DNA from: an uncultured Clostridia bacterium
GTDB lineage: Bacteria; Bacillota; Clostridia; Oscillospirales; Ruminococcaceae
NCBI GenBank assembly: GCA_947625375.1
Contig: CANQOC010000005.1
Span: forward strand, 45,630-109,629
Direction: 5' to 3'
Length of the DNA: 64,000 bases
Part shown: positions 40,272-63,836 of the stretch, piece after piece
Layout: each line of letters starts with the position of its first letter
Numbering within the stretch: the stretch's first letter is position 1
The notes under the pieces: generated by a model
What the model saw: only the letters and a program-made list of their open reading frames with translations
Database searches by the model: none
Told to the model about the DNA's origin: nothing
Made by a program: the position numbers and the translations under genes

Positions 40272-40447
40272 ATCAAATCCTCCTTTAAATCAAAAAACTC
40301 CGGACTTATTATAATCCAACCCGCCGCTGTTGTCAACCGGATTAGAGGTTAGAAATTAGAGATTAGAAATTAGAAGTCAGAAAAATGCCCGCACGGTTAG
40401 ATGCGGGCGATTTTAAGGAAAAAGCTGTTATGCCGTTGTCGGTTAAA

Positions 40448-40708
40448 TCAGTCTCCCGAGCCGACCGGGCCGTTATATCCGCACCAGTCGCAGACAAGGC
40501 TGTTTCCGCCGTCGTACAGATAGATATACGACCCGCCGGACTTCTTGCACATCGGGCAGCAGGGCGCCGGGCGCGTCTTCTGCTCCGCGCCGTCGGATTT
40601 TTTCAGCATCGCGCCGACGCTCTTAATCACGTCGCCGACAATTCCGCCCCCGACAGCTCCCGAGAGCTCGCCGTCTTTAAGCTCGCAATCCTCTTTTCTG
40701 TTGGACAT
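40448..40708 (-). CDS. Array A member A10: double-glycine-leader peptide with zinc-ribbon-like core
   Basis: Leader ...ELKDGELSGAVGG. Core GIVGDVIKSVGAMLKK, a linker, then CCPMCKK...CDWCGYNGP. Confidence 0.75.
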   Translation of the reverse strand: MSNRKEDCELKDGELSGAVGGGIVGDVIKSVGAMLKKSDGAEQKTRPAPCCPMCKKSGGSYIYLYDGGNSLVCDWCGYNGPVGSGD

Positions 40709-40751
40709 TCCGTCAGCCTCCTTTCGTCCTCGGCCGGTCGGCCTTGGGTTA

Positions 40752-41069
40752 TCATCTCATCGTGACAAAGCCGAATTCGTCTTTTCCGATAGAGTCAGGC
40801 TTCGGGGGTTCTTTTTCCTCATGCTTTGGGCGGAACATGGACAGCCAAAAGTCTCCGCACGCTTCCAAAAAATCGTCAAGGATTTCAATTCCTCCGGCGG
40901 CGCCTTCGATTTCCTCGTCAGAAATCTCTCCGCTCCTCGCGTTTATCTTAGAGAAAAACTTCTCGGCGTCTTCCGGCGCGAGGTCCTTGCCGTTTTCCTT
41001 TGCAAGCTCGATAAGCTCGCCGGCGGACTTTGCCGCCCTTGCCCTTTTAATGAATTCTTCTTGTGTCAT
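40752..41069 (-). CDS. Array A member A9: Nif11-type-leader precursor
   Basis: Leader MTQEEFIKRARAAKSAGELIELAKENG...SGEISDEEIEGAAGG. 45-aa core IEILDDFLEACGDFWLSMFRPKHEEKEPPKPDS... Confidence 0.8.
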   Translation of the reverse strand: MTQEEFIKRARAAKSAGELIELAKENGKDLAPEDAEKFFSKINARSGEISDEEIEGAAGGIEILDDFLEACGDFWLSMFRPKHEEKEPPKPDSIGKDEFGFVTMR

Positions 41070-41092
41070 AATATTATCTCCTTTCGGTATTT

Positions 41093-41410
41093 TTATCTCA
41101 TCGTGACAAAGCCGAATTCGTCTTTTCCGATAGAGTCGGGCTTCGGGGGTTCTTTTTCCTCATGCTTTGGGCGGAACATGGACAGCCAAAAGTCTCCGCA
41201 CGCTTCCAAAAAATCGTCAAGGATTTCAATTCCTCCGGCGGCGCCTTCGATTTCCTCGTCAGAAATCTCTCCGCTCCTCGCGTTTATCTTGGAGAAAAGC
41301 TTCTCGGCGTCTTCCAACGCGAGGTTATTGCCGTTTTCCTTTGCAAGCTCGATAAGCTCGCCGGCGGACTTTGCCGCCTTTAATGTTTTAATAATTTCTT
41401 CGTTAGCCAT
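41093..41410 (-). CDS. Array A member A8: Nif11-type-leader precursor (paralog of A9, identical core)
   Basis: The C-terminal two thirds are identical in protein to A9, while the N-terminal leader is diverged. 341-bp tandem duplication. Confidence 0.8.
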   Translation of the reverse strand: MANEEIIKTLKAAKSAGELIELAKENGNNLALEDAEKLFSKINARSGEISDEEIEGAAGGIEILDDFLEACGDFWLSMFRPKHEEKEPPKPDSIGKDEFGFVTMR

Positions 41411-41458
41411 AATAATATCCTCCTGTAAATAAGTATCGGCTTTACTGTCCGAAGATTC

Positions 41459-41782
41459 TCAGTTCTTAATGATAACCTTCTTATTACGCGGATCCAACAG
41501 CTGGCAGAGCAGCATATCGGGTTCATGACCCAGATGTCTGCAGGTTCCGCAGCACCCCTGAAGAATAACCTTGGCTTCGCCGTTGGTAATGCCCTTTTGG
41601 CGCGCGTAAAGGGAAATATTCATTTCGCTCGGAGTGCTGTCGCCCGGCTGATACTGTCCGATAATACACTTGGTGTCAAGCTTAATGACGGGATAGTCGA
41701 GAGAGCCTTCGCCCCCGCCCGCCGCGGCGCTGAGCTTAACGTCGTTAATTTCGCTGTGCTTAATAATCTCTTCATCTGCCAT
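41459..41782 (-). CDS. Array A member A7: short GG-leader precursor with 84-aa core
   Basis: Leader MADEEIIKHSEINDVKLSAAAGG. The core ends ...LQGCCGTCRHLGHEPDMLLCQLL... Confidence 0.72.
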   Translation of the reverse strand: MADEEIIKHSEINDVKLSAAAGGGEGSLDYPVIKLDTKCIIGQYQPGDSTPSEMNISLYARQKGITNGEAKVILQGCCGTCRHLGHEPDMLLCQLLDPRNKKVIIKN

Positions 41783-41823
41783 AATATCGCCTTCTTTCTT
41801 AACGATTAAATTAACCCGGGTTA

Positions 41824-42159
41824 TTAGTTTAGATATAACGGTCCTTCATATCCGCAGTCGTCACAGTAAATCATCTTTGTGCCGTCGGGAGCGTCGTGAA
41901 TAAAAATCCATGCCGACGACGTCTGACCGCAAATCGGGCATTTTTCGGGAGTCCAAGGCGGCGCCGCGGGAGTGGGAGCTTTCGGCTCTTTCTGCTTTTT
42001 CGGCTTAGAGTCCTTTCCACCGTAAAACAAACCGCCGATAGATTCCTTGACCCAGTCAACTACTCCCCCGCCGGCGACATTGTCGAGATTGTCGTCCGAG
42101 ATTTCGTGCGGCTCGGCGGCCTCGATTTTTTCTTCTTTTTTGATTTCCTTTTCAGACAT
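41824..42159 (-). CDS. Array A member A6: GG-leader peptide with zinc-ribbon-like core
   Basis: Leader ...HEISDDNLDNVAGG. Core GVVDWVKESIGG, a Lys/Pro-rich linker, then CPICGQ...CDDCGYEGP. Confidence 0.75.
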   Translation of the reverse strand: MSEKEIKKEEKIEAAEPHEISDDNLDNVAGGGVVDWVKESIGGLFYGGKDSKPKKQKEPKAPTPAAPPWTPEKCPICGQTSSAWIFIHDAPDGTKMIYCDDCGYEGPLYLN

Positions 42160-42205
42160 AATATTATCTCCTTTAAATAAATTTCGTCAGTCGGATATGC
42201 GGTCA

Positions 42206-42451
42206 TCAGACCGAGGACAAGGGCCCCTCATATCCGCACAGCAAGCATTTAATCATAACCGTGCCGTCATCGGCCGCGGTGCCGAAAACAAAAACATTGT
42301 CCACAGGCTTATGGCAAAAGGGGCAGAGGTCGGGTTCCTTCGGCTTCTCCCAAGGATAATGCAAATCCGCCTTAATCCAATCATCGATTGCTCCCCCTCC
42401 CGACGCCTTTTCGAGAGCGCCGTCCGAGAGCTCGCTGTTAAGCCTTTTCAT
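42206..42451 (-). CDS. Array A member A5: GG-leader peptide with zinc-ribbon-like core
   Basis: The ATG at 42451 follows SD aaggagga. Leader MKRLNSELSDGALEKASGG. Core GAIDDWIKADL...CPFCHK...CLLCGYEGP. Confidence 0.75.
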   Translation of the reverse strand: MKRLNSELSDGALEKASGGGAIDDWIKADLHYPWEKPKEPDLCPFCHKPVDNVFVFGTAADDGTVMIKCLLCGYEGPLSSV

Positions 42452-42474
42452 TGCAGCTCCTCCTTCGCGGGTCA

Positions 42475-42657
42475 TCAAAGCCTGCACATGCCGTTGCCGC
42501 AATATTGTCTGCAGTTGTCACAGGACTTATCTTTACTGCCATACTTCCCATTAAAAAGGTCGCAGTAATGCTCGGGCGGGCAGTCGTGACCCCCGTCGAC
42601 CCCGACGCTCTTTCCGCCGGTAACCTTCTCGGTTTCAATGTCTTTAGATTCTTTCAT
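42475..42657 (-). CDS. Array A member A4: bacteriocin-type GG-leader, 6-Cys core
   Basis: MKESKDIETEKVTGG then KSVGVDGGHDCPPEHYC...SCDNCRQYCGNGMCRL. Confidence 0.8.
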   Translation of the reverse strand: MKESKDIETEKVTGGKSVGVDGGHDCPPEHYCDLFNGKYGSKDKSCDNCRQYCGNGMCRL

Positions 42658-42682
42658 TGTAAAGTCCCCTTTCTTCAGTCAA

Positions 42683-42868
42683 TCAAAGTCTGCACCTGTT
42701 GTTGCCGGAATACGCCTGACAGTTGTCACAGGACGTATCCTTCTTCCACTTATCCTTCGCGCAAAATCCTCCGCAGGTATGCGCGGGCGGGCAGTCGTGA
42801 CCCCCGTCGACTCCGACGCTCTTTCCGCCGGTTGCTTCCTCAATCTCGAAATCATTAAGCTCTTTCAT
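42683..42868 (-). CDS. Array A member A3: bacteriocin-type GG-leader, 6-Cys core
   Basis: MKELNDFEIEEATGG then KSVGVDGGHDCPPAHTCGGFC...SCDNCQAYSGNNRCRL. Confidence 0.8.
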   Translation of the reverse strand: MKELNDFEIEEATGGKSVGVDGGHDCPPAHTCGGFCAKDKWKKDTSCDNCQAYSGNNRCRL

Positions 42869-42891
42869 TGTAAATCCTCCTTAAAATAATG

Positions 42892-43110
42892 TTATCGTGC
42901 ATGGTTGCACAGGTCTTTTCCGTCGTTGTTTTTTCCGCAATGGTGACGGCAGTTGTAACAGGAATCCGGGTCTCCCGGAAGTCTTCCGCTGCCCTCTTTC
43001 TCGTGATAATACTTGCATATCTTGCTTTCGGGACAGGTCCAATAGCCGTAGACGTTGACGGTTCTTCCGCCGGTGACTTCCTCAATCTCGAAATCATTAA
43101 GCTCTTTCAT
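42892..43110 (-). CDS. Array A member A2: bacteriocin-type GG-leader, 6-Cys core
   Basis: MKELNDFEIEEVTGG then RTVNVYGYWTCPESKIC...GDPDSCYNCRHHCGKNNDGKDLC. Confidence 0.8.
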   Translation of the reverse strand: MKELNDFEIEEVTGGRTVNVYGYWTCPESKICKYYHEKEGSGRLPGDPDSCYNCRHHCGKNNDGKDLCNHAR

Positions 43111-43127
43111 TGTAATTCCTCCTTAAA

Positions 43128-43355
43128 TTACGGTTCCCACCAAGCTAATGTGCACAGGTTTTCTCCCTTTTGATTATATCCGCAGAAGAAGCGGCAGTAG
43201 ATGCAGGAATCAGGGTCTCCCGGCTGTTTGACCATGCCATCCTTAAATAAATAATGCTTACACATACGGCTTTCGGGACCAACCCAATAACCTATCGGGT
43301 TGACACTTCTTCCTCCGGCGGCCGTCTCGAGTTCCTTGTCGTTAATTTCTTTCAT
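43128..43355 (-). CDS. Array A member A1: bacteriocin-type GG-leader, 5-Cys core
   Basis: MKEINDKELETAAGG then RSVNPIGYWVGPESRMC...GDPDSCIYCRFFCGYNQKGENLC. Confidence 0.8.
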   Translation of the reverse strand: MKEINDKELETAAGGRSVNPIGYWVGPESRMCKHYLFKDGMVKQPGDPDSCIYCRFFCGYNQKGENLCTLAWWEP

Positions 43356-43405: not shown

Positions 43406-43469
43406 ATTATACCACTATTTTTTGATTTTGGCGTGTCGTTTACGTCACATTTCGTGTCGTTTACGTCAC
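43406..43469 (-). promoter_or_regulatory. Array A promoter: two phased 16-bp direct repeats plus an extended -10
   Basis: On the minus strand: GTGACGTAAACGACAC, gaaat, GTGACGTAAACGACAC, 21 nt, TGgTATAAT. The -35 is weak (ACGCCA). Confidence 0.7.
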
Positions 43470-52449: not shown

Positions 52450-52513
52450 TTGACGCAGATGACACCTTTTTCCCGCAAACGACAAGGCACAGAGGGAAAA
52501 GATGTGATATAAT
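52450..52513 (+). promoter_or_regulatory. Array B promoter: degenerate copies of the array A direct repeat plus an extended -10
   Basis: TTGACGCAGATGACAC (12/16 match to GTGACGTAAACGACAC), about 20 bp on TTCCCGCAAACGACAA (11/16), then 22 nt to TGaTATAAT (52505-52513). Confidence 0.6.
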
Positions 52514-52557: not shown

Positions 52558-52989
52558 ATGAACGAAATCATTAAAAAAGCAAGAGCGGCAAAGTCGGCCG
52601 GAGAGCTCATCGAGCTTGCGAAAGCCAACGGCAAGGACCTCACCAAAGAACAGGCCGAGATGTTCTTCAAAAGCCTCAGCCAAGGCGGCGAGATATCCGA
52701 CGAGGAGCTTTCGAGCGCGGTCGGCGGGTGCGGCGGTTCGGAAATATCCTGGGAGAAGAGCCTCGGCTTCTCGAGAATCGATTGCCGAAAGGGCGACTTC
52801 GTCGGGGGACACACCTTTGCGGCGAAGACGTATTGGAAGTGCGCCATCTGCGGGGGACACATCTACTGCGACGGTCCTTTGACCGCATACACCAACTGCA
52901 CCCACCTCAAGCAGCATAAGGTCCTCGGCTGTAACAACTGCTTTTTCAACGAGAACGGAAAATGCAACTACTATGACGACAGCCTTTGA
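52558..52989 (+). CDS. Array B member B1: Nif11-type-leader precursor, 86-aa 9-Cys core
   Basis: Leader MNEIIKKARAAKSAGELIELAKANG...GEISDEELSSAVGG. The core starts CGGSE, contains WKCAIC and ends GCNNCFFNENGKCNYYDDSL. Confidence 0.8.
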   Translation: MNEIIKKARAAKSAGELIELAKANGKDLTKEQAEMFFKSLSQGGEISDEELSSAVGGCGGSEISWEKSLGFSRIDCRKGDFVGGHTFAAKTYWKCAICGGHIYCDGPLTAYTNCTHLKQHKVLGCNNCFFNENGKCNYYDDSL

Positions 52990-53019
52990 TTAAGGGCAGG
53001 GTTCTGAGGAGGTATTATC

Positions 53020-53445
53020 ATGAACGAGGAAATTTTAGCAAAGGCAAAGGCGGCAGGTTCGCCGGAGGAGCTTTTAAAGCTTGCTCACGAAAACGGCATG
53101 TCCTACTTTACCGAGGAGAACGCGAACGCTTATTTCAACGTCCTGCACCAGAGCGGCGAGATTACGGACGAAGAGCTTGAAAAAGCGGCGGGAGGCTGCA
53201 AGAGCAACAAGAGGCGTGTCGTTACGCTCGGATACATCTGCCCCGTAAACTACGGAGGCTGGAAGTGCAAGGACTGCCTTGCGCCGAACAACGTCTGCAA
53301 GTGCTGGCTACAGCCGCCGGAGCTTTCGCGCAAGTTCCACGCGTCAATCTTCGCGTGGTGCGCCGATACATGCAGCACCTGCGCGTGGTGTTCATATGAA
53401 AGCGGCATATGGTACTGCAACAACCCCGAAGCAAACGAACTGTAA
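53020..53445 (+). CDS. Array B member B2: Nif11-type-leader precursor, 82-aa 11-Cys core
   Basis: Leader ...AAGSPEELLKLAHENG...SGEITDEELEKAAGG. The core starts CKSNK, contains WKCKDC and CSTCAWCSYESGIWYCNNP. Confidence 0.8.
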   Translation: MNEEILAKAKAAGSPEELLKLAHENGMSYFTEENANAYFNVLHQSGEITDEELEKAAGGCKSNKRRVVTLGYICPVNYGGWKCKDCLAPNNVCKCWLQPPELSRKFHASIFAWCADTCSTCAWCSYESGIWYCNNPEANEL

Positions 53446-53465
53446 TCCCGAAGGGAGAATTTAAC

Positions 53466-53891
53466 ATGTTTAACGAAGAAATGATTAAAAAAATCCGCGG
53501 ACTCGGCTCGCCCGAGGAGCTTATTGAGTTCGGAAAGGAAAACGGCGTCGCAATCAGCAAGGAGACGGCGGAGAAGTATTTTAACTCGCTTCACGGCAGC
53601 GGCGAAATCTCGGACGAGGAGCTTGAGAACACCGCCGGCGGCTGCGGCGGAGGCTATTCGCCGTCGATATATAAGCAATGCCCCGAATGCGGGACAAATA
53701 TCGCGATGAAGGACTTCCGCGACGTCAAGGTTATCGTCAGCGACGAGGTTCTCCACCAGTGGGGATATCCGACCGGCGTATGCCCGAAATGCAACGTCCG
53801 CTATGCTTATGTCCGCGCGCTGAATATGCTCTATCCCGTATCGGTTGACGAAAAGGGCACTTGGGTCATAAGACCGCCGCACAGATATTAA
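53466..53891 (+). CDS. Array B member B3: Nif11-type-leader precursor, 82-aa core with two CxxC pairs
   Basis: The ATG at 53466 follows SD aagggaga. Leader ...SGEISDEELENTAGG. Core CGGGYSPSIYKQCPEC...GVCPKC. Confidence 0.8.
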   Translation: MFNEEMIKKIRGLGSPEELIEFGKENGVAISKETAEKYFNSLHGSGEISDEELENTAGGCGGGYSPSIYKQCPECGTNIAMKDFRDVKVIVSDEVLHQWGYPTGVCPKCNVRYAYVRALNMLYPVSVDEKGTWVIRPPHRY

Positions 53892-53903
53892 AGGAGCTTT
53901 ATC

Positions 53904-54398
53904 ATGAACGACGAAATTTTAGCAAAGGCAAAGGCGGCGGGGTCGCCGGAGGAGCTTTTGAAGCTGGCTCACGAAAACGGCATGTCCTACTTTACCGAGG
54001 AGAACGCAAGGGCGTATTACAGCCTTATGCACCAAAGCGGTGAGATATCCGACGAGGAGCTTGAAAACGCGGCGGGAGGCTGTCGGAAGGGCGGGTATAG
54101 GGTTGTCTCGCGCGGAAATGTATGCGGCTTGGGGCAGTCGGTGGCAATCAACGGCTTCTATGCGTTCACTGAGTGGAAATGCAAGACCTGTAAAGAAATG
54201 CCGGGAGCCGGACTTAGCTTTGAAGACTGGTATAATGTTCACAGGTCATGCAGCTGCAACCGCAGCATATTAGACTCTGTTGCATTTTCGCTCGGCGTAT
54301 CCGTCAACTTCGGGGCGGTCGGAGTCTGCGGCTCCTGCGATTGGTGCAATTACGTCGACGGCGTTTGGATTTGCACAAACCCGCGTGATGCCGAGTGA
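53904..54398 (+). CDS. Array B member B4: Nif11-type-leader precursor, 105-aa 10-Cys core
   Basis: The leader is nearly identical to that of B2. The core starts CRKGG, contains WKCKTC and CGSCDWCNYVDGVWICTNP. Confidence 0.8.
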   Translation: MNDEILAKAKAAGSPEELLKLAHENGMSYFTEENARAYYSLMHQSGEISDEELENAAGGCRKGGYRVVSRGNVCGLGQSVAINGFYAFTEWKCKTCKEMPGAGLSFEDWYNVHRSCSCNRSILDSVAFSLGVSVNFGAVGVCGSCDWCNYVDGVWICTNPRDAE

Positions 54399-54415
54399 AC
54401 ATAACTGAGAAAGCC

Positions 54416-54547
54416 ATGAAAGAAGAAATCATTAAAAACGGCGAGATTTCAGACGACGAGCGTGAAAGCGCGGTCGGCGTCCTCGACTACAGGCGCTTCT
54501 CGGAGGTGCAGATTATCGAGGTCTATCACGCATACGGCGGCTTCTGA
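54416..54547 (+). CDS. Array B member B5: 43-aa ORF with a collapsed or decayed leader (remnant or possible signalling peptide)
   Basis: Not in the ORF track. MKEEIIKNGEISDDERESAVGVLDYRRFSEVQIIEVYHAYGGF. Retains the leader ends (EEIIK and GEISDDE..SAVG) but has GV in place of GG. Weak SD. Confidence 0.4.
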   Translation: MKEEIIKNGEISDDERESAVGVLDYRRFSEVQIIEVYHAYGGF

Positions 54548-54587: not shown

Positions 54588-54660
54588 ATGACCCTTGCGG
54601 CGGACAACGCTTAAAAACTCCGTTTTCGCATATAATCATTATATACGAAGAAAGGGAGCG

Positions 54661-54852
54661 ATGAAGATGGCAGATTCAAAGTACACAAGCGTGAGATACT
54701 GTCCTCATCTCGGGCACAACGTGATTATCGAGCAAAGGATTCGCGGCGGGGTTATTTGTCTCGAGTGCCTCAACCGTGCGGACTGCGGGTATTCGGAGGA
54801 AGGCTGCCGGAATAGACTGATAGAGGATAGACGGTTAGAGGATAGAAGTTAG
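54661..54852 (+). CDS. Small leaderless Cys-rich protein (63 aa)
   Basis: SD aaagggag lies upstream of the ATG at 54661. MKMADSKYTSVRYCPHLGHNVIIEQRIRGGVICLECLNRADCGYSEEGC... The last ~10 codons and the stop lie in a purine tract. Confidence 0.5.
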   Translation: MKMADSKYTSVRYCPHLGHNVIIEQRIRGGVICLECLNRADCGYSEEGCRNRLIEDRRLEDRS

Positions 54853-57399: not shown

Positions 57400-57666
57400 C
57401 ACTGTGAAACTACCGATATCGATAATGATTTTGTCAGCGCAAACGATTTGTATACCGAGTATCTCGCATTTTGCAGAGAAAACAGCATGCAGGCGTTGAA
57501 CTCAATGCCGGGGTTCTCGCAAAGGCTGATGTACTTGTACGCTCCTGCTATTGAATCGGATAGAAAGGGCAGTCTCAACGGATACCGAAGGCTTAAACTA
57601 TACAAAGACCCTGTCGTGTTTGTAGGGTCGAAGTCAGCTACAAGCGAAAAAGCAGATCAAGAGTAA
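57400..57666 (+). pseudogene. C-terminal remnant of a phage/plasmid (P4-family-like) primase
   Basis: DFVSANDLYTEYLAFCRENSMQALNSMPGFSQRL resembles the primase C-terminal region. The N-terminal catalytic part is absent, and the upstream part of the ORF is AT-rich and unconvincing. Confidence 0.3.
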
Positions 57667-57755
57667 TAATAACCTAAAGACGATATTTTTAAATATTTAA
57701 ACTGTATAATATCCTTCTGAAACATCGTTTCAATTATATTTCAAGAGGATTTATT

Positions 57756-58127
57756 ATGTCTAAAATCACTATTTTGGTCGTCGAGCCCAGCAAAAAGCCC
57801 TATGTCAAAGAAATCGAAAACACCCTTAAATCACTTCAACATGAAGTCGAAGGTTACATTCAAGCCGTCTATCCTTGGAAGGAGCCAGCAGCTCTGATTT
57901 GCGACGAAGAATCAAAGCTAAAGAATAAGCCTTTCAACCGAGCAATGAGAGATGAGGACGGCAAAATCTACGATTATATCTCCGGCACTTTCCTGATCAC
58001 CGGTCTCGGCGAGGAAGACTTTGCTTCGCTGTCGCCGGAGCTGGTTACTCACTTCTCCGACCTATTCTCCGTTTCCGAAATGCTCGTCAGCATCGACGGG
58101 AAGCTGACCGTCCTGCCGATGAATTAA
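57756..58127 (+). CDS. DUF3846-domain protein
   Basis: ITILVVEPSKKPYVKEIENTLKSLQHEVEGYIQAVYP...ALICDEESKLKNKPFN, the pattern typical of DUF3846 found on Firmicutes mobile elements. Confidence 0.7.
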   Translation: MSKITILVVEPSKKPYVKEIENTLKSLQHEVEGYIQAVYPWKEPAALICDEESKLKNKPFNRAMRDEDGKIYDYISGTFLITGLGEEDFASLSPELVTHFSDLFSVSEMLVSIDGKLTVLPMN

Positions 58128-58168
58128 GAAGGCAGATTCAGTCCCACCTTCTATATAAGAGGAGAGAC

Positions 58169-60088
58169 TTAATTTTGAAAGTACTCCGATACCGCCTTAA
58201 CAAACTCATCTTTGGTAAGAGGCTGCTTGCCGGATTTACCGCTTACGGGCGCCTGTGACTGCCCCTGCGCAGGCGCAGCAGTTTCAGTCGAATTTTCGGA
58301 AAGCATTTCAGGATTAAGGTCAAAGAGAGTCATCTGACCTGAGTCTTCATTCTTTTCCTTCTTCTGTGTAGCCATGAAGTTCTTAACATATTCCTGATAA
58401 ATCTCAAGCTGCGTTTTCGGATTGCTGACTTCGGCAAACGACTTCACGCCGGACGCCGTAATTGCAAAATCAAGCAGAGAAAGCTGACCATCGTCCACAG
58501 TAGCCGATACACCTACGGACTCCGAAGGCTCAACAGCAGCCTTATCGAGATCACGATAACGGAAGATATCACTGCTCTTGATTTCATCTACAATTTCTCT
58601 GTAATGGTCATGTGCAACAATGTCAAGAGAGTCCAAGTCCTCATTGCCCGTCTGTTCTCCAAATGGGAGCCTCAAGCCGCGGCCAATAGTCTGCATAGCA
58701 AGAATTTCGCTTTTTGCCGCATTAAGCGGGATAATCGTAAAGAGGTTATTGACATCCCAGCCTTCCTTCAGCTTATAAACGTGCAAAACAATCTCAATCG
58801 GGTTGGAAGAACTCTCTATAGAGAGCAAAAGACGGATATTCTCTTCTGATTCTTCACCAGTCTGTTTTGAATGGATTTCTATAACCTTGCCCTTATACTT
58901 GCCGTTTTGGAAGTCATCGCTGTCGATAAGCACACGTATTTTCTTTGCATGGTCTGTATCTTTGCAGGCAATAAGAACAATCGGTTTCACATAGCCGAGA
59001 TCATTCTCATTGCAATAGTCTCCTTTTTCATCACAAAGTAACAGTACCGGGAAGAGAAGTTTTGAGGAATCGCAGAAGGCTCCTATAAACAGGATTCCGT
59101 GCGATCCGAGAACTTTTTCTCCCCAATTATCAACTTTCCAGTAGTGAAGTCCGCCGTCAACTTCCAGCTCATCAAATGCACTCCAGTATTCCACGTCGTG
59201 CAGGTACCTTGCAATGTCAGCCTTAGTCGCTTCGAGTGCCTGTTCCTTTGCACCGCTGCTTTCGGTGAGCAGAATGGAGCGGAGTTCTCTTGCTTTCTTG
59301 TCCCGATTTGCGTTCAGTTTGCGATCCAGCTTGTCAAAGGCTTTCTTAAACTCCGCTGTGGTGTTGCAGGTCTGGTAGTCCTGACCTTCGATGTAGCGTT
59401 TGATAAATACCTTTTCGCTTCCGAAAATACGCTGGTCAATAAATGATACCAGTCCGTGAAGATCTGTCAGCGAATTCTGAAGAGGTGTAGCAGTCAGCAA
59501 AATCTTCGGTATGCCCTTGGATAGTTCATACAGATTCTTTGCACGTTTCGTTCCGTGAAATACGTTTCTTAGGTTGTGCGCCTCATCGATAATGATGAAA
59601 TCCCACTTCACCTCCGGGAACCGTTTCATCAACTTTGATGAGTAGTCGTAGGTGGTAATGACAATTCTGACAGAATTATTGTCAGTAAGTCTCTTACGCC
59701 AGTCTGAACTATCTTTTTCTACTGTAATCCTGTCAAGTATCACTGACTCCAAATTGAACTTATCCTCAAGTTCCAGTTCCCACTGTTTTCTCAATGATGC
59801 CGGGAGTGCAATCAAGACACGCTTTGCGCCGGACTCAAGAACATATTTCAGTACAAGTCCGGCTTCGATGGTCTTTCCGAGTCCTACCTCATCGGCAAGT
59901 ACGATACCACCTGTTTTCAACGCTTGGATAGCAGCGCAGAAGGCATTTATCTGATGAGGATTCAATTCAATGTTCGCGTCCAAAAGGAAGTGGAACGGAG
60001 ATGCCTCAAGTTCCAGCTTTTTATATCTGCTGAATTGCTCAAGGAGCAGGTTACCTTCCATCTGTATCTCCTTTATACAGTTGCTCAA
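58169..60088 (-). CDS. Superfamily-2 helicase: SNF2-like N-terminal lobe, type III Res-like C-terminal lobe, no nuclease domain
   Basis: Motif I ADEVGLGKT, II IIIDEAHNL, III LLTATPLQN, then KLKEGWDVNNLFTIIPL...QTIGRGLRLPFG. The start (60088 or 60061) overlaps the MTase stop. Confidence 0.8.
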   Translation of the reverse strand: MSNCIKEIQMEGNLLLEQFSRYKKLELEASPFHFLLDANIELNPHQINAFCAAIQALKTGGIVLADEVGLGKTIEAGLVLKYVLESGAKRVLIALPASLRKQWELELEDKFNLESVILDRITVEKDSSDWRKRLTDNNSVRIVITTYDYSSKLMKRFPEVKWDFIIIDEAHNLRNVFHGTKRAKNLYELSKGIPKILLTATPLQNSLTDLHGLVSFIDQRIFGSEKVFIKRYIEGQDYQTCNTTAEFKKAFDKLDRKLNANRDKKARELRSILLTESSGAKEQALEATKADIARYLHDVEYWSAFDELEVDGGLHYWKVDNWGEKVLGSHGILFIGAFCDSSKLLFPVLLLCDEKGDYCNENDLGYVKPIVLIACKDTDHAKKIRVLIDSDDFQNGKYKGKVIEIHSKQTGEESEENIRLLLSIESSSNPIEIVLHVYKLKEGWDVNNLFTIIPLNAAKSEILAMQTIGRGLRLPFGEQTGNEDLDSLDIVAHDHYREIVDEIKSSDIFRYRDLDKAAVEPSESVGVSATVDDGQLSLLDFAITASGVKSFAEVSNPKTQLEIYQEYVKNFMATQKKEKNEDSGQMTLFDLNPEMLSENSTETAAPAQGQSQAPVSGKSGKQPLTKDEFVKAVSEYFQN

Positions 60089-61337
60089 AAATACCCATTG
60101 CTATCCCTTTGGCCATCATCGGAGGCACAGCATTTCCAATCTGAACAAATTGAGATGTGCGTGGTCCCTCAAAGAAATAGCTGTCCGGGAAGGACTGTAT
60201 TCTTGCTGCCTCGCGGACGGTAATTGATCTATTCTGTTCAATATCAGGATGAATGAAATAATGACCATCCTTTGAAAGGTGTGCCAGAATGGTATGGCAA
60301 CACGATTCATCACCTTCGACAACTTTGAACCTATCCGTGAACGAATGTCTGTTTTTATGCGTCTTCAATTCATCCGGGAGATTGTTGTAGTTGAGGCGTT
60401 TATGACCATCATTCCACAGTTCAACCGCTCTCCTGTAAATCTTGATATCCCGATCTATATTCGGTCGGCAATTATGGTGAGTCAGAACATCATCTTTCGT
60501 CCGTATTCCATATTCCGTGACATAACTGCTTGCTTTTGATTTAGCATATTTATCGGAGCTCTCGCCTGGATGCAGTTTAGGCAGATCAACAAAGAGATCA
60601 TTGACTATAGCGCCCGTTTTGATTTCAAGAAAATCGGGATACTTTAGACCGCTTTTCTTTAGCCACCCCACGATAATCATTCGGCGCCTGTTTTGGAGAA
60701 CGCCGAACGTGTGTGCGTTCTGCTCCCGACATTCAATTTCGTAACCCACTCGTTTTAAGTATTTCTGAATGTTCTTCCAAGTAGCTCCGCCGTTGGCCGA
60801 TTCAATACCCGTGACATTCTCGAAAACGAACATACGAGGCTGATAGCGTTTTAGGAAACGTGCGTACAGTTTGTATAAGTAGTTACGAGGGTCTTCTGCC
60901 ATTGGCACTTCCATGTGGCTGCTTTGCGCTCTGCCCACTAAGGAGTAAGCTTGGCAAGGAGGGCCTCCAACAATAACATCAATCTTAGTGATGCCTCGAA
61001 TTTTCATTATCCCATCAATGGTCTTGAAAATTGCCGGGAGCGTCTCGTCTGACATCGTTTCATTGATGATGGTTTTTGTTATGGAAGCAGGTATCTGCTT
61101 CATAAAATCGTCGCGGGAGATTTTCCCCAACACGTATTTTTTATATAAGCCGAGATTGTCAGTGCCTTTCAAATAATAATAGGCACTTCTCGTTTCAAGC
61201 GTTTTTGCTGCAAACTTATTCATTTCAACATGAGCTACAGGTTTGAACCCAGCCTGAAGAAACCCTTCTGAAAGACCACCTGCTCCTGCAAAAAGGTCAA
61301 TGAAATTGTAGCTATATTGCGCATCTATCTTTGGCAT
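60051..61337 (-). CDS. dcm: DNA (cytosine-5)-methyltransferase
   Basis: Motif I DLFAGAGGLSEGF, IV GGPPCQAYS, VI FVFENV, X QIGNAVPP. Confidence 0.93.
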   Translation of the reverse strand: MPKIDAQYSYNFIDLFAGAGGLSEGFLQAGFKPVAHVEMNKFAAKTLETRSAYYYLKGTDNLGLYKKYVLGKISRDDFMKQIPASITKTIINETMSDETLPAIFKTIDGIMKIRGITKIDVIVGGPPCQAYSLVGRAQSSHMEVPMAEDPRNYLYKLYARFLKRYQPRMFVFENVTGIESANGGATWKNIQKYLKRVGYEIECREQNAHTFGVLQNRRRMIIVGWLKKSGLKYPDFLEIKTGAIVNDLFVDLPKLHPGESSDKYAKSKASSYVTEYGIRTKDDVLTHHNCRPNIDRDIKIYRRAVELWNDGHKRLNYNNLPDELKTHKNRHSFTDRFKVVEGDESCCHTILAHLSKDGHYFIHPDIEQNRSITVREAARIQSFPDSYFFEGPRTSQFVQIGNAVPPMMAKGIAMGIFEQLYKGDTDGR

Positions 61338-61361
61338 ATAGTTTCCTCGTCACTCTTCGTT

Positions 61362-61619
61362 TTAATCGGAAGGCTCTTGTTCTTCCACACTGTTCTTGTC
61401 CGATTTCATTGGCGCCGAATCTGGGACGAATTCCATAATGTCAGCAACATCGCATTTTAGTTCCTGACAGATTTTTGAAAGAACCTCTGTGGTTACATTC
61501 TCATCTTTGGTGAGCTTAGCGAGTGAAGAAGAGCTGATACCTGCTTTTTTTCGCAGATCAGACTTTTTCATCTGCTTATCAATCAGTAACTTCCACAGCT
61601 TGTTATAACTCATCTTCAT
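61362..61619 (-). CDS. XRE-family HTH regulator (controller-protein-like, upstream of the MTase)
   Basis: 85 aa. HTH MKKSDLRKKAGISSSSLAKLTKDENVTTEVLSKICQEL. Confidence 0.85.
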   Translation of the reverse strand: MKMSYNKLWKLLIDKQMKKSDLRKKAGISSSSLAKLTKDENVTTEVLSKICQELKCDVADIMEFVPDSAPMKSDKNSVEEQEPSD

Positions 61620-62070
61620 TTTGTTTTATTCCTCCGTGTCCCATTGTCTTCAATATAGTTTACGATTATTTGTTGGCAGTTTCAATTATTTTATTATAAT
61701 GACATCAGTGCTGGAAAAGAAGCTACATTGAGACGTAAAATACGTTAAATTTATTATAGCATAAAAGTGTCCGTTTGTCAAATCAATCGTTCGCGTTGTG
61801 GATATTTTTCGGTCATTAAGGATGTATTTATGGCGATACCCCAATTATACACCAATCCGGCAGTTGACGCATTAGTTTACATTGATAAATAATCACCGGT
61901 AAATGTATAAAGTGCAACGGCAGCAAGTCCGATAAAATTTAGTCCCTTACTTATCCCGCAAAATATCCAAAAAACTGTTTACAAAACGGAAAAAGTGTGG
62001 TAAAATATACATAGGTCATATCAGCCGATTAAAGCGGCGGGTGACACTATTTTTGAGAAAAGGTGATTTT

Positions 62071-62451
62071 ATGGATTTCAAAACCGCGGTCACAAGCGTA
62101 CTGAAGACCAACTACGCCAACTTTAACGGAAGGGCAAGGCGCAGCGAATACTGGTACTACACCCTGTTTACCATCATCGTCGAGCTCGTCCTCACCGTCA
62201 TTCAGAAGCTGACGTCGGGCGTACCCGTTGTCGGCCTGATTGTGAACATTCTCATCGTGATAATCGGCCTTGCGCTCTTCATTCCCGGCCTCGCCCTCTG
62301 TTTCAGAAGGCTTCACGACACCGGCCGCAGCGGCATCTGGATTCTTATCGGACTGATTCCGCTCATCGGCGAGATTATTCTCATCGTCTTCTTCGTCCAG
62401 GACAGCCAGCCCGGCGACAACAAATACGGCGCCAACCCCAAAGGGGTATGA
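62071..62451 (+). CDS. DUF805-family inner-membrane protein
   Basis: GRARRSEYWYYTLF signature, TM helices and RRLHDTGRSGIW. The ATG at 62071 follows SD aaaggtga. Confidence 0.88.
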   Translation: MDFKTAVTSVLKTNYANFNGRARRSEYWYYTLFTIIVELVLTVIQKLTSGVPVVGLIVNILIVIIGLALFIPGLALCFRRLHDTGRSGIWILIGLIPLIGEIILIVFFVQDSQPGDNKYGANPKGV

Positions 62452-62498
62452 CGGAAAGCGCTCCGAGAGGAGCGCCCCGATAAAACAGATATGTTTTC

Positions 62499-62532
62499 CG
62501 AACCGATGTATCACTGCATCGGTTCGTTTTTT
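62499..62532 (+). terminator. DUF805 gene terminator
   Basis: 10-bp stem cgaaccgatg / catcggttcg followed by tttttt. Confidence 0.8.
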
Positions 62533-62762
62533 ATGACGGCGAAAGCGTATACATAAGCATTATTTCCTCCTACGCGCGGCGTGAGCGGTGATGCCCGAAA
62601 AAGGCATAAAAAGCGTCACAAGCGATACAAAGCTTGCGACAGGGGTCCCCGCAAAGCGAAGCTTTGTGGGGAAAAAGCCGGAGCGACGGAGCGAGTGAGA
62701 GGCGGCATTGAGTGCGTAAGCATGAAAATGCCGTCGCGAACGATACGAAGTCCGCGACGGCT

Positions 62763-62818
62763 TGGCGGAGAGGAAGGGATTCGAACCCTTGTGCCTTTTG
62801 GGCAAACGGTTTTCAAGA
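62763..62818 (-). pseudogene. Truncated tRNA-Ser(UGA) 3' fragment: putative att site of an integrated element
   Basis: The reverse complement CTTGAAAACCGTTTGCCCAAAAGGCACAAGGGTTCGAATCCCTTCCTCTCCGCCA covers the anticodon loop, long variable arm, T-arm, acceptor 3' strand and CCA. No matching 5' acceptor or D-arm is found upstream. Confidence 0.7.
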
Positions 62819-63070
62819 CTTTTCGGTTATTCGGAAGTTAAAGTAAGTTGACCGAAATCAGTTTAAGATAAGCAACCCGTAAAACCGCTTGTATAAGCGC
62901 TTTGCAAGGTCTGATTATCCGAAAAGCCTTTAAAATCGGGCGTTTGCAAGGTCGGCTCGAAAACAGCATTTTGGGGGAGAAAAATGCACGTTGGAGAGAA
63001 AAAGGAGAGAAAACAGGAGAGAAAAGTGATAACCTTGCCATGCTGATTTTAACGATAGGAGTTATCACTT

Positions 63071-63673
63071 ATGAGAGAAAATAAAAGGCTTTTCAATCAG
63101 CTCCGTTCTGAATATCCCAACGGACTGTCTAAGGAGCAATTTTACAAAATCGCGCATATCAGCAAGGCTACCGCCCGTTATCTTCTTCAAAGCGGCAAGG
63201 TTCCGTGCAAGGACACCGGCAAGAAAACGCGCTGCTATCTAATACAAGTCGAAGATGTGATTTTTTATCTGCAAGACCGCGAGGCACACCCGGACAAATA
63301 TTTGGCGATTGACGGTTGGTATTCCGCAAACTCTAAAGTTCGGAAAGACTTTATATCATACCGTCAAGAGCTTCGCAGGATCAGCAAGAAACAGGTCAAG
63401 AAGCTCAAAGAGCATATCGAAACTCAGACAGACGAAGTCGGCGACCTGCTGAACATCAAAATAATCAGCAAGGTCACCGGATACAGCTGCTCTTCAATTT
63501 GCAGATGGTGCGAAAGCGGGAGACTCCGCTCCTTCAGAATCTCAGGGGCATATAATGTACCGAAAGAATGGCTCGTTGAGTTTTTGATTTCGGAATACGC
63601 GAGCGAGATAGTGAGAAAGTCAAAGCGGCATCTTGAAATGATAAGGGAGTTTTTGGCGAAAGAAAACTGCTGA
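63071..63673 (+). CDS. Helix-turn-helix (excisionase-family-like) DNA-binding protein
   Basis: Two HTH-like segments (YKIAHISKATARYLLQSGKVPC; SKVTGYSCSSICRWCESGRLRSFRISGAYNVPKEWLVEFL). Confidence 0.55.
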   Translation: MRENKRLFNQLRSEYPNGLSKEQFYKIAHISKATARYLLQSGKVPCKDTGKKTRCYLIQVEDVIFYLQDREAHPDKYLAIDGWYSANSKVRKDFISYRQELRRISKKQVKKLKEHIETQTDEVGDLLNIKIISKVTGYSCSSICRWCESGRLRSFRISGAYNVPKEWLVEFLISEYASEIVRKSKRHLEMIREFLAKENC

Positions 63674-63836
63674 AATCGGACAGGATTTTGTCAATGATGA
63701 TACTGTAATCTAACAAAAAATCAAGACACGTGCCACAAATAGCCTTGACAAGTTCAGAAAAATGTGATATAATAACCCCGCTTACGATTGTATCGCGCAC
63801 GGATGTTTATATATTTCATTTGGAGGCTTTTCAATA

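What the first reader, a model, noticed from the sequence alone, without database searches (positions are those of the whole stretch)
40448..43355. Array A: ten tandem genes for double-glycine-leader peptides with long, diverse, Cys-rich cores and no cognate machinery nearby
Ten same-strand ORFs of 60-111 aa lie 17-48 nt apart, each with its own GGAG-type SD. Every product starts with a charged leader ending in Gly-Gly. A1-A4 have textbook class-II bacteriocin/ComC-type leaders (MKEINDKELETAAGG, MKELNDFEIEEVTGG, MKELNDFEIEEATGG, MKESKDIETEKVTGG). A5, A6, A7 and A10 end in ..LEKASGG, ..LDNVAGG, ..LSAAAGG and ..LSGAVGG. A8 and A9 carry a ~60-aa Nif11-type leader (AKSAGELIELAKENG...SGEISDEEIEGAAGG). 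The predicted cores (45-85 aa) are much longer than typical RiPP or class-II bacteriocin cores and fall into at least four unrelated sequence classes. No C39-peptidase ABC exporter, immunity protein, lanthipeptide synthetase, radical-SAM enzyme or cyclodehydratase is encoded anywhere in the 64 kb, and the flanks are housekeeping genes (tatD, GH5). This looks like a combinatorial secreted-miniprotein locus served in trans, comparable in logic to prochlorosin-type precursor families but with different cores.
Basis: partly seen in the sequence, partly recalled or inferred. Interest (0 to 1): 0.9.

Follow-up and report, generated by a model that had tools for sequence, protein, structure and literature searches.

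The report
Co-regulated arrays of exported Cys-rich peptide precursors
Ten back-to-back small genes in an uncultured gut Clostridia bacterium encode fast-evolving, cysteine-rich peptides with cleavable export leaders, and a shared promoter element ties them to a second array and to an uncharacterised radical-SAM enzyme elsewhere in what is very probably the same genome.

Summary
Ten minus-strand genes (43355 to 40448) form one operon with an extended -10 promoter, an AGGAG site per gene and a terminator. All ten products carry acidic double-glycine leaders. The cores fall into four classes.

The 64 kb holds no peptidase-ABC exporter and no peptide-type radical-SAM (rSAM) enzyme. The "orphan" picture changes once relatives are examined.

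- A second array (52558-54398, four Nif11-leader genes) lies in the same window.
- Both arrays sit behind the same composite operator: two 11-bp direct repeats 20-21 bp apart, then about 20 nt, then TGnTATAAT. It occurs 16 times in 422 kb of window and related loci, and 0 times in 50 controls. One copy lies directly upstream of an rSAM/SPASM gene.
- In 15 of 23 related Clostridia loci the same leader families lie within 10 kb of that uncurated rSAM/SPASM family. In 7 of 23 they lie near NHLP-type exporter genes.
- An rSAM locus with eight more short-leader peptides co-occurs with the window's strain in the same three metagenomes at similar coverage.

Best reading: precursors of a dispersed, co-regulated, leader-guided system, probably rSAM-modified and PCAT-exported. 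Modification and export are inferred, not shown. This is a new variant of a known kind. Array-A cores are species-restricted and diversify between strains.

The parts
43406..43465 (-). Composite operator/promoter of array A. It has two perfect ACGTAAACGACACG direct repeats 21 bp apart, then 20 nt, then the extended -10 TGGTATAAT. There is no -35.
   Evidence: The same architecture occurs at 16 sites in 422 kb against 0 in 50 Markov controls.
43128..43355 (-). A1, 75 aa. Leader MKEINDKELETAAGG, core with the C-x18-CxxC-x13-C framework.
   Evidence: The allele is only 57% identical in the sister strain while the leader is kept.
42892..43110 (-). A2, 72 aa. Short GG leader, same 4-Cys framework.
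42683..42868 (-). A3, 61 aa. Short GG leader, shortened framework.
   Evidence: Mosaic with A4 in the sister strain.
42475..42657 (-). A4, 60 aa. Short GG leader with degenerate -7/-12 positions.
42206..42451 (-). A5, 81 aa. GG leader, then a DDWIK segment, then a CPxC...CxxCGYEGP zinc-ribbon-like core.
   Evidence: (TIGR03655 18.5 bits, sub-threshold)
41824..42159 (-). A6, 111 aa. 31-aa GG leader, Lys/Pro-rich linker, zinc-ribbon-like C-terminus.
   Evidence: (TIGR03655 27.1 bits, E 3.8e-6, cut-off 39.6)
41459..41782 (-). A7, 107 aa. GG leader and a unique 84-aa core with five Cys (CCGTC motif).
   Evidence: Identical protein in the sister strain. Found in 47 blocks of the assembly collection.
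41093..41410 (-). A8, 105 aa. 60-aa Nif11-type leader and a 45-aa core with a single Cys.
40752..41069 (-). A9, 105 aa. Paralogue of A8 with an identical core and a diverged leader.
40448..40708 (-). A10, 86 aa. GG leader and zinc-ribbon-like core. Absent from the sister strain through a clean indel between short repeats.
40387..40408 (-). Intrinsic terminator closing the array-A operon (GCCCGC..GCGGGC followed by a T-run).
   Evidence: Conserved in the sister strain.
52454..52513 (+). Composite operator/promoter of array B, with the same architecture as array A.
52558..54398 (+). Array B: four genes (52558-52989, 53020-53445, 53466-53891, 53904-54398). Each has a Nif11-type leader ending GG|C and a core of 82-105 aa with 5-11 Cys. 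B2, B3 and B4 resemble, in the same order, peptides of an array in L011 that lies beside an rSAM/SPASM gene (by eye, no alignment run).

Best explanation
Array A is a single regulated operon of ten precursor genes. It belongs to a genome-dispersed, co-regulated system for leader-guided, cysteine-rich exported peptides.

Shown:
- The operon anatomy.
- Conserved GG-type leaders. The short 15-aa leader is essentially the last 15 residues of the Nif11-type leader.
- Four core classes, and diversification between strains.
- A composite direct-repeat operator plus extended -10. It is shared with array B and, on other contigs, with the promoter of an rSAM/SPASM gene and its adjacent peptide arrays.

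Inferred:
- An activator that binds direct repeats in 21-bp phase switches on all units together. It may be LytTR-type.
- A promiscuous rSAM/SPASM maturase encoded elsewhere recognises the shared leader segment and cross-links core cysteines, probably as thioethers. The C-x(n)-CxxC-x(n)-C cores of A1-A4 are the most likely substrates.
- An NHLP-type peptidase-ABC exporter (TIGR03796/TIGR03797 type in relatives) cleaves after Gly-Gly and exports the 45-85 aa products.
- The products probably act in interbacterial competition or signalling. This would explain allele replacement, gene conversion and gene gain or loss between strains that are 96-98% identical in the flanks.
For: - Operon anatomy.
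- Leader consensus.
- Leaders are better conserved than cores: 8 of 15 leader positions are invariant against 9-10 of about 60 core positions.
- The ORFs are real and constrained. All are intact in the sister strain, with A1 dN/dS 0.46 and flanks 0.05-0.14. They are called as genes in 6 contigs.
- The operator occurs at 16 sites in 422 kb against 0 in 50 controls. The sites lie upstream of arrays A and B, of arrays in L011, L012, L015, L020, L021, L030 and L040, and directly upstream of the rSAM gene in L037/L053.
- rSAM/SPASM orthologues (44-83% identical to each other) lie in 15 of 23 loci found through the leader alone. Their domains are PF04055, PF13353 and PF13186.
- Exporter genes lie in 7 of the 23 loci by tblastn, with both subunits visible in five (L018, L025, L027, L031, L033). 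The L025 pair scores above the curated cut-offs: TIGR03796 949 bits (cut-off 853) and TIGR03797 751 bits (cut-off 709).
- The rSAM locus L053/54/55 lies in the same three samples as the window-identical contigs, at coverage 4.7-5.1 against 5.8-6.3. The sister allele L037 has a tetranucleotide correlation of 0.965-0.976 with the window; known same-species contigs score 0.94-0.98 and other species 0.90 or less.
- All 29 short-leader peptides examined, including A1-A4 and the eight beside the rSAM gene in L053, share the C..CxxC..C framework.
- A LytTR-domain gene lies in locus L020.
- Haft 2010 links Nif11 leaders to the TIGR03794/6/7 exporters and to hypervariable cores.
Against: - No exporter, peptide-type rSAM or regulator lies in the 64 kb or in about 10 kb further left.
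- The PCAT of this genome was not found.
- Assigning the rSAM contig to the same genome rests on co-occurrence, coverage and composition, not on a closed assembly.
- Array-A cores have no detectable sequence homologues outside this species. Their link to rSAM-adjacent peptides is therefore through the leader, the Cys framework and the operator, not through homology.
- A8/A9 cores have a single Cys.
- Zinc-ribbon-type cores in L013 sit beside an exporter gene with no rSAM in the fetched DNA. Some classes may therefore be exported unmodified.
- No chemistry, expression or secretion data exist.
- The structure predictions were uninformative.
- The cores are hydrophilic and near-neutral, unlike typical pore-forming bacteriocins.
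- No immunity gene lies in the array.
Confidence: 0.6

Rival explanations
1. The products are unmodified secreted miniproteins of the class II bacteriocin or class II microcin type. The GG leaders are cleaved and the cores exported by a PCAT. The cores then fold on their own around Zn or disulfides. The rSAM enzyme serves only the peptides encoded next to it.
For: - A5/A6/A10 have a classical CPxC...CxxC zinc-ribbon signature, with sub-threshold Lar-family and Zn-ribbon hits.
- The AF2 model shows three strands at pLDDT 66-70 over that part.
- In L013, zinc-ribbon cores with Nif11 leaders sit beside an exporter subunit with no rSAM in 18 kb.
- A8/A9 have only one Cys.
- Core sizes match class II microcins and the PCAT1 cargo CtA (general knowledge; PMC6959990 listed).
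Against: - The array-A promoter carries the same operator as the rSAM gene.
- A1-A4 share the Cys framework of the peptides encoded next to the rSAM gene.
- 15 of 23 leader-defined loci contain the rSAM gene.
- From general knowledge, disulfides are unlikely to be stable for a strict gut anaerobe.
Confidence: 0.25
2. One or more of the peptides are quorum-sensing pheromones that feed back on the direct-repeat-binding regulator. The array would then be mainly a signalling locus rather than an effector locus.
For: - From general knowledge, GG-leader pheromones processed by PCATs (ComC, BlpC, plantaricin A) control LytTR regulators that bind direct repeats with a 21-bp period.
- The operator has that geometry.
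- A LytTR gene lies near one related array.
Against: - From general knowledge, known pheromones have cores of 17-30 aa, whereas these have 45-85 aa.
- Ten to fourteen different peptides per genome is excessive for signalling.
- No histidine kinase of the peptide-sensing type and no LytTR gene was found in the window.
Confidence: 0.1
3. These are intracellular small Nif11-domain or zinc-ribbon proteins. The Gly-Gly is only a linker, and the proteins are neither cleaved nor exported.
For: - From general knowledge, the Nif11 domain also occurs in non-secreted proteins.
- No exporter lies in the window.
- The cores are hydrophilic, like cytoplasmic zinc-ribbon proteins.
Against: - The -4/-7/-12 hydrophobic pattern and acidic character are conserved across unrelated cores.
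- The same leaders are physically linked to C39-peptidase ABC exporters in several species.
- Cores are hypervariable behind conserved leaders.
Confidence: 0.04
4. The ORFs are chance or non-coding.
For: None beyond the lack of database homologues.
Against: - Ten of ten genes have a Shine-Dalgarno site.
- The ORFs stay intact across diverged alleles.
- The operon has its own promoter and terminator.
- The leader is conserved.
Confidence: 0.01

Closest known systems
Nif11-/NHLP-leader precursor families with the TIGR03794/TIGR03796/TIGR03797 export system (Haft, Basu & Mitchell 2010, PMC2887384)
   Same: - Long Nif11-type leaders ending in GG.
- Many paralogous precursors per genome with hypervariable cores.
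- Precursors sometimes far from the enzymes.
- In relatives, the exporter matches the same curated models above cut-off.
   Different: - The leaders here score below the TIGR03798 cut-off (23.5-26.3 bits against 32.3; one of the six gave no hit).
- The associated enzyme is an uncurated rSAM/SPASM family, not a cyclodehydratase or LanM.
- Cores are 45-105 aa.
- A truncated 15-aa leader version coexists with the long one.
- No HlyD-like TIGR03794 component was seen; from general knowledge this fits a Gram-positive host.
Prochlorosins (ProcA precursors and ProcM in marine cyanobacteria)
   Same: - One leader logic and dozens of unrelated cores.
- Precursor genes scattered in the genome and served in trans.
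   Different: - No LanM is present: the window has no ORF above 881 aa, and the largest is AlaRS.
- The enzyme is probably rSAM/SPASM.
- The cores are 2-4 times longer.
- The host is an anaerobic gut Clostridia bacterium.
- A dedicated shared operator is present.
rSAM/SPASM thioether RiPPs: sactipeptides and ranthipeptides (e.g. SkfA/SkfB, ruminococcin C, SCIFF/CteB, freyrasin/PapB)
   Same: - Cys-rich cores.
- An rSAM/SPASM enzyme with an N-terminal extension.
- Tandem precursor paralogues, as in rumC.
- The closest solved structure by sequence is SkfB (E 2.4e-12).
   Different: - The enzyme reaches 66-125 bits against every curated rSAM model shown, whose cut-offs are 180-725 bits.
- Cores are longer than any characterised sactipeptide or ranthipeptide that I know of.
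- The chemistry is unknown.
Double-glycine class II bacteriocins and class II microcins, and the PCAT1-CtA pair of Clostridium thermocellum (PMC6959990, PMC8794836)
   Same: - A 15-aa acidic GG leader with hydrophobic -4/-7/-12 positions.
- Cargo of 45-90 aa.
- Multi-gene cocktails.
   Different: - The cores are hydrophilic and Cys-rich, not amphiphilic or cationic.
- No adjacent immunity gene or exporter.
- TIGR01847 gave no hit at E<=1.
ComE/BlpR/PlnC/AgrA-type LytTR regulons of bacteriocin loci
   Same: - Direct repeats in about 21-bp phase just upstream of a promoter that lacks a -35.
- Several dispersed peptide operons under one operator.
   Different: - The half-site (CGYARAYNRCA) is unlike the known boxes.
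- The regulator is not identified in this genome.
- Partner-switching modules (SpoIIE, STAS, HATPase_c_2) and an ECF sigma factor also recur near related arrays.

Membership tests
Double-glycine leader peptides (class II bacteriocin / ComC type) | N-terminal leader ending in Gly-Gly, with hydrophobic residues at -4, -7 and -12 (and -15) and acidic character | tested here: met
   Ten of ten end in GG. Position -4 is A or V. Positions -7 and -12 are L or I, except in A4. Leader net charge is -0.5 to -6.5.
Double-glycine leader peptides (class II bacteriocin / ComC type) | Match to the curated leader model TIGR01847 | tested here: not met
   The NCBIfam scan at E<=1 returned no TIGR01847 hit for any of the ten. 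The only leader-region hits were weak ones to plantaricin C, at 13.5-14.5 bits.
Double-glycine leader peptides (class II bacteriocin / ComC type) | A cognate C39-peptidase ABC exporter in the same genome | not testable with these tools
   None lies in the window or in about 10 kb to its left. Exporter genes lie beside homologous leader families in 7 of 23 related loci.
Nif11-like leader peptide RiPP precursors (TIGR03798) | Match to TIGR03798 above the curated cut-off of 32.3 bits | tested here: inconclusive
   A8 and A9 score 24.2-24.3 bits, E about 3e-5, aligned to model positions 15-68 of 68. Array B proteins B2-B4 score 23.5-26.3 bits; B1 gave no hit at E<=0.01. The hits are significant but below the cut-off. 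Pfam Nif11 scores only 12.7 bits.
Nif11-like leader peptide RiPP precursors (TIGR03798) | Association with the NHLP-type export ABC pair TIGR03796 and TIGR03797 | tested here: inconclusive
   Met in relatives: the L025 pair scores 949 and 751 bits, above the cut-offs. Exporter homologues lie in L013, L018, L024, L025, L027, L031 and L033. Not demonstrable for this genome.
rSAM/SPASM-modified thioether RiPPs (sactipeptide / ranthipeptide-like) | An rSAM/SPASM maturase genetically linked to the precursors | tested here: inconclusive
   Not in the window. Linked in 15 of 23 related loci. An rSAM locus carries the same operator and co-occurs with this strain in 3 of 3 samples at similar coverage. 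Tetranucleotide correlation is 0.965-0.976.
rSAM/SPASM-modified thioether RiPPs (sactipeptide / ranthipeptide-like) | The maturase belongs to a characterised family (StsB, PapB, SkfB, CteB and others) | tested here: not met
   the best hits listed are 66-125 bits, against cut-offs of 180-725. SkfB matches only at E 2.4e-12.
rSAM/SPASM-modified thioether RiPPs (sactipeptide / ranthipeptide-like) | Cys-to-carbon thioether cross-links in the mature product | not testable with these tools
   Requires mass spectrometry or NMR of products. The cores do hold 4-6 Cys, except A8/A9 with one.
Prochlorosin-type class II lanthipeptides | A LanM synthetase acting on Nif11-leader precursors | tested here: not met
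   The window has no ORF above 881 aa, and the 881-aa ORF is AlaRS. No LanM-sized ORF stood out next to the arrays in the 23 related loci, though the large ORFs there were only motif-screened; the recurrent neighbour is the rSAM/SPASM gene.
Zinc-ribbon proteins (Lar-like, TIGR03655 / PF14354), for A5, A6 and A10 | Two CxxC knuckles on beta-hairpins, with a model match above cut-off | tested here: inconclusive
   CPxC...CxxC is invariant in the three proteins. TIGR03655 scores 27.1 bits against a cut-off of 39.6. The AF2 model has three strands but pLDDT of only 66-70.

The most novel reading that the evidence does not exclude
One promiscuous, so far uncharacterised rSAM/SPASM enzyme matures, in trans, a genome-wide library of at least 23 precursors in this species. 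These are the 14 in the window plus 9 at the rSAM locus. They fall into several unrelated scaffolds with cores of 45-105 aa. All units are switched on together through a dedicated direct-repeat operator.

This would be an anaerobe's counterpart of the prochlorosin strategy. It would make cross-linked miniproteins that would, to my knowledge, be among the longest RiPP cores known. The array-A scaffolds are species-private and turn over between strains.
Probability: 0.35. Interest if true: 0.85.

Novelty: new variant of a known kind. Interest (0 to 1): 0.62.

Why it matters
If the model holds, three things follow.

- Gut Clostridia would have a large, untapped class of leader-guided, cross-linked miniproteins. 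The rSAM family alone has more than 1,000 clusters at 90% identity, all named only "radical SAM protein".
- The system would offer a substrate-tolerant enzyme and a short 15-residue recognition leader. Both are attractive for peptide engineering.
- The shared operator gives a practical handle. It predicts which dispersed small genes belong to the system, and it could be used to find the regulator and the inducing cue.

The strain-level turnover (allele replacement in A1, mosaic A3/A4, loss of A10) points to ongoing ecological conflict or signalling in the gut. It is directly testable with metagenomic time series.

Tried and rejected
1. Sequence homology for the cores led nowhere.
   - The word-index search with A6 found only self and sister-strain proteins.
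   - The same search with the A1-A4 profile gave the same result.
   - An exhaustive HMMER search of the A1-A4 profile against 1.84 billion representatives gave 3 hits, all self.
   - phmmer of the nine distinct cores against 3,929 small ORFs of related loci gave nothing usable.
2. Pfam and NCBIfam gave only sub-threshold hits for the peptides.
3. AlphaFold2 was too uncertain to use. The A5/A6/A10 alignment gave pLDDT 51.5 and the A1-A4 family 43.7. No fold search was run.
4. The source species was not in the GTDB representative set: the best locus was 50% identical.
5. Walking left of the window found only RadC, DUF4349, RpoB and RpoC.
8. Four literature searches found no description of this system.
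9. I considered that the direct repeats might be an ECF-type -35/-10 pair (AAC...CGT). I rejected this for three reasons. The spacing is about 14 nt, against 16-17 from general knowledge. A strictly conserved extended -10 follows 20 nt downstream. The element is a true repeat.
10. I considered a lanthipeptide or TOMM reading and rejected it, because no LanM-sized ORF is present.

Full report
**Observation**

The minus strand between 43355 and 40448 holds ten consecutive, non-overlapping ORFs of 60-111 aa.
- Each starts with ATG and has an AGGAG/GGAGG site 6-9 nt upstream. The gaps are 17-48 nt.
- The 110-nt gap after tatD holds an extended -10 (TGGTATAAT).
- A strong hairpin followed by a T-run lies behind A10 (40408-40387).
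- The next gene, a GH5 cellulase, has its own perfect TTGACA-17-TATAAT promoter.

Array A is therefore one transcription unit. Independent gene callers called all ten genes on six metagenome contigs.

All ten products begin with an acidic leader ending in Gly-Gly. Position -4 is A or V, and -7 and -12 are L or I; A4 is degenerate.

The cores fall into four classes.
- A1-A4 are alignable. They have four invariant Cys arranged C-x(n)-CxxC-x(n)-C.
- A5, A6 and A10 have an invariant CPxC...CxxCGYxGP. This zinc-ribbon-like signature gives only sub-threshold Lar-family hits.
- A7 stands alone.
- A8 and A9 have 60-aa Nif11-type leaders (TIGR03798 24.2-24.3 bits, E about 3e-5, cut-off 32.3) and identical 45-aa cores.

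The cores are hydrophilic, near-neutral or acidic, and have no membrane segment.

**The window**

The window is otherwise housekeeping. It encodes AlaRS, RecG, RecA, citrate synthase, LysRS, an OmpR-type two-component system, sugar-binding proteins, TatD and two GH5 cellulases.
- The three ORFs of 600 aa or more are AlaRS, RecG and an SNF2 helicase, so there is no PCAT or LanM.
- The single radical-SAM protein (4253-5611) has UPF0004+Radical_SAM+TRAM domains. From general knowledge this is the MiaB/RimO methylthiotransferase architecture.
- tblastn with the exporter, rSAM/SPASM and LytTR proteins of related loci finds nothing in the window.

**A second array**

A motif scan found a second array on the plus strand: 52558-52989, 53020-53445, 53466-53891 and 53904-54398. 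It holds four proteins with Nif11-type leaders ending GG|C and cores of 82-105 aa with 5-11 Cys. Three of the four reach 23.5-26.3 bits on TIGR03798.

The short leader of A1 (KEINDKELETAAGG) is almost the last 14 residues of these long leaders (GEISDEELENAAGG). The two leader types thus share the cleavage-proximal recognition segment.

**Relatives**

Searches with the cores find nothing outside this species.
- Word-index searches with A6 and with the A1-A4 profile returned only near-identical proteins.
- An exhaustive HMMER search of the A1-A4 profile against 1.84 billion representatives gave three hits, all self or sister strain.

A scan of 185,579 species genomes with the leader alignment gave 23 loci. 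All come from uncultured gut Clostridia: rabbit "Lapin" MAGs, Hadza MAGs, Candidatus Coproplasma, Oscillospiraceae and Ruminiclostridium. None is more than 50% identical, so the source species is not a GTDB representative.

These loci contain arrays of up to about 20 genes. The arrays mix the same two leader types, with Cys-rich cores of 45-105 aa.

Two kinds of neighbour recur.
1. A 465-506 aa protein is present in 15 of the 23 loci, 44-83% identical between loci.
   - It has Radical_SAM, Fer4_12 and SPASM domains.
   - In NCBIfam it reaches only 66-125 bits against every curated rSAM family listed, whose cut-offs are 180-725 bits.
   - Its closest solved relative by sequence is the sactipeptide enzyme SkfB, at E 2.4e-12.
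   - The family has 1,055 clusters at E<=1e-60, named only "radical SAM protein".
2. Exporter genes are present in 7 of the 23 loci by tblastn, with both subunits visible in five of them.
   - The L025 pair is a C39-peptidase ABC protein (TIGR03796, 949 bits, cut-off 853) followed by a second ABC protein (TIGR03797, 751 bits, cut-off 709).
   - This is the export system that Haft et al. linked to NHLP and Nif11 leaders (PMC2887384).

Some arrays in other species also sit among housekeeping genes with no machinery within 10 kb: L019, L022, L014 and L015. The arrangement in the window is therefore not unique.

**A shared operator**

Upstream of array A lie two perfect 14-bp direct repeats (ACGTAAACGACACG) 21 bp apart. 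The extended -10 follows 20 nt after the second repeat, and there is no -35. Array B has the same layout.

I searched for the composite pattern: half-site CGYARAYNRCA twice at 20-21 bp, then about 20 nt, then TGnTATAAT. It finds 16 sites in 422 kb of window plus related loci, and none in 50 Markov-shuffled sets.
- The sites lie in front of arrays in L011, L012, L015, L020, L021, L030 and L040.
- In L037 one site lies directly in front of the rSAM gene. The same holds in L053-L055.

This is an activator-type promoter. Its geometry matches LytTR-regulated bacteriocin promoters (general knowledge). A LytTR-domain gene sits in locus L020. The regulator in this genome is unknown.

**Is the rSAM enzyme in the same genome?**

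The rSAM allele P0146 is 96.6% identical to P0016 of L037. It lies on contigs from samples ERZ27249405, ERZ27249400 and ERZ27249685, at coverage 4.8, 5.1 and 4.7. The same three samples hold contigs with window-identical proteins:
- RecA at coverage 5.8;
- A7 at coverage 5.8;
- the ten-gene arrays L004 and L001 at coverage 6.3 and 6.0.

L037 has the window's GC content (0.54) and a tetranucleotide correlation of 0.965-0.976 with it. Known same-species contigs score 0.94-0.98 and other species 0.90 or less. Both the window's RecA and P0146 are also listed from NCBI on contigs of 112,570 and 63,178 bp.

I therefore think it very likely, though not proven, that this genome carries the following locus:
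- a GntR regulator;
- an ABC-2 transporter, which is a candidate immunity system;
- eight short-GG-leader peptides;
- the rSAM/SPASM gene;
- one more GG peptide;
- a PepSY protein;
- an ECF sigma factor;
- three operator copies.

Those eight peptides share the C-x(n)-CxxC-x(n)-C framework of A1-A4, as do all 29 short-leader peptides I examined.

**Evolution**

A sister strain (L007) is 96-98.5% identical in tatD and the GH5 genes, with dN/dS of 0.05-0.14. The array has changed much faster.
- A1 is only 57% identical at the protein level, yet its leader is conserved.
- A3 and A4 are mosaics of each other.
- A10 is missing through a clean deletion between short repeats, while the terminator is kept.
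- The other genes are 91-100% identical.

All ORFs stay intact. This pattern fits loci under diversifying or frequency-dependent selection, as in bacteriocin cocktails.

**Interpretation**

Steps shown:
- the operon anatomy;
- the leader features;
- the core classes;
- the shared operator;
- linkage of the leader families to the rSAM/SPASM and NHLP-type exporter genes in relatives;
- probable presence of the rSAM locus in the same genome;
- turnover between strains.

Steps inferred:
- co-activation by a repeat-binding regulator;
- leader-guided modification of Cys-rich cores by the rSAM enzyme, probably as thioethers by analogy with SkfB and CteB-type enzymes;
- cleavage after GG and export by a PCAT;
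- an extracellular role in competition or signalling.

The main rival is that some or all array-A products are exported unmodified and fold around zinc. This applies especially to A5/A6/A10 and to A8/A9. Zinc-ribbon cores in L013 lie next to an exporter gene with no rSAM gene in reach, which keeps this rival alive.

**Comparison and novelty**

The system works like the Nif11/NHLP precursor families and like prochlorosins: many cores, one leader logic, service in trans. It also works like rSAM thioether RiPPs. It does not meet membership tests for any curated enzyme family, and the leaders are sub-threshold for TIGR03798. Four literature searches found no description.

I rate it a new variant of a known kind, of moderate to high interest. 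The dispersed regulon, the uncharacterised enzyme family and the miniprotein-sized, species-private cores are still worth following up.

Noticed in passing
window 52558-54398 (+), with a remnant at 54395-54547: A second array of four Nif11-leader genes, with cores of 82-105 aa and 5-11 Cys, all starting with Cys right after GG. B2, B3 and B4 resemble, in the same order, peptides of an array in L011 that lies next to an rSAM/SPASM gene (by eye). A 50-aa ORF after it looks like a decayed leader (..GEISDDERESAVGV..).
   Followed up: yes
window 43406-43465 (-) and 52454-52513 (+); L011, L012, L015, L020, L021, L030, L037, L040, L053-55: A conserved composite operator: two 11-bp direct repeats at a 20-21 bp period, then about 20 nt, then TGnTATAAT. 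It lies in front of peptide arrays and of the rSAM gene. It occurs at 16 sites against 0 in 50 controls.
   Followed up: yes
L053 (ERZ27249405 NODE_1331), L054, L055; sister allele L037: A probable same-genome locus with a GntR regulator, an ABC-2 transporter (candidate immunity system), eight short-GG-leader Cys peptides, an rSAM/SPASM gene, a 104-aa GG peptide with an internal repeat, a PepSY protein and an ECF sigma factor.
   Followed up: partly
window about 57500-64000: A low-GC segment (0.41-0.46 against 0.54). Its tetranucleotide correlation with the rest of the window is only 0.34. It encodes an SNF2-family helicase (58169-60088) and a C5 cytosine methyltransferase (60051-61337). It is probably a mobile or defence island.
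   Followed up: no
window 40340-40385 (-), between the array-A terminator and the GH5 promoter: A run of TCTAAT(T/C)-like heptamer repeats. The sister strain has about 100 extra bases inserted here.
   Followed up: no
window 40448-40751 compared with L007 12603-12909: A10 is a clean presence/absence polymorphism bounded by an AGGCCGACCGGC-like short repeat.
   Followed up: yes
L020 51-5590, L030, L013, L025, L040/L041: Regulatory genes recur beside related arrays: a LytTR-domain protein, a MatE-HATPase_c_2 fusion, a HAMP-SpoIIE phosphatase, a formyltransferase, and STAS, anti-sigma kinase and sigma factor genes. This suggests partner-switching control.
   Followed up: partly
L018 5235-7872, L027 9986-11241, L031 9569-15235: In Candidatus Coproplasma-type loci, many Nif11-leader cores have few or no Cys beyond the one at +1. 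They share a ..P(K/E)(Y/F).VGD.V.. motif and may be small non-Cys domains. They sit beside the PCAT pair and the rSAM gene. The conserved GG|C junction is unexplained.
   Followed up: no
window 54595-54852 (+): An 85-aa ORF (63 aa from MKMADSK) with seven Cys (CPHLGH...CLECLNRADCGYSEEGC) and no GG leader, directly after array B.
   Followed up: no
window 4253-5611 (-): A radical-SAM protein with UPF0004 and TRAM domains, the MiaB/RimO-type architecture.
   Followed up: yes
L013 4262-10378: Ruminiclostridium cores with the same architecture as A5/A6/A10: GG, an amphipathic segment such as ..TDFFKNL.., a linker, then CPxCG...CxxC. They lie downstream of a TIGR03797-like ABC gene, with no rSAM gene in the 18 kb fetched.
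   Followed up: partly
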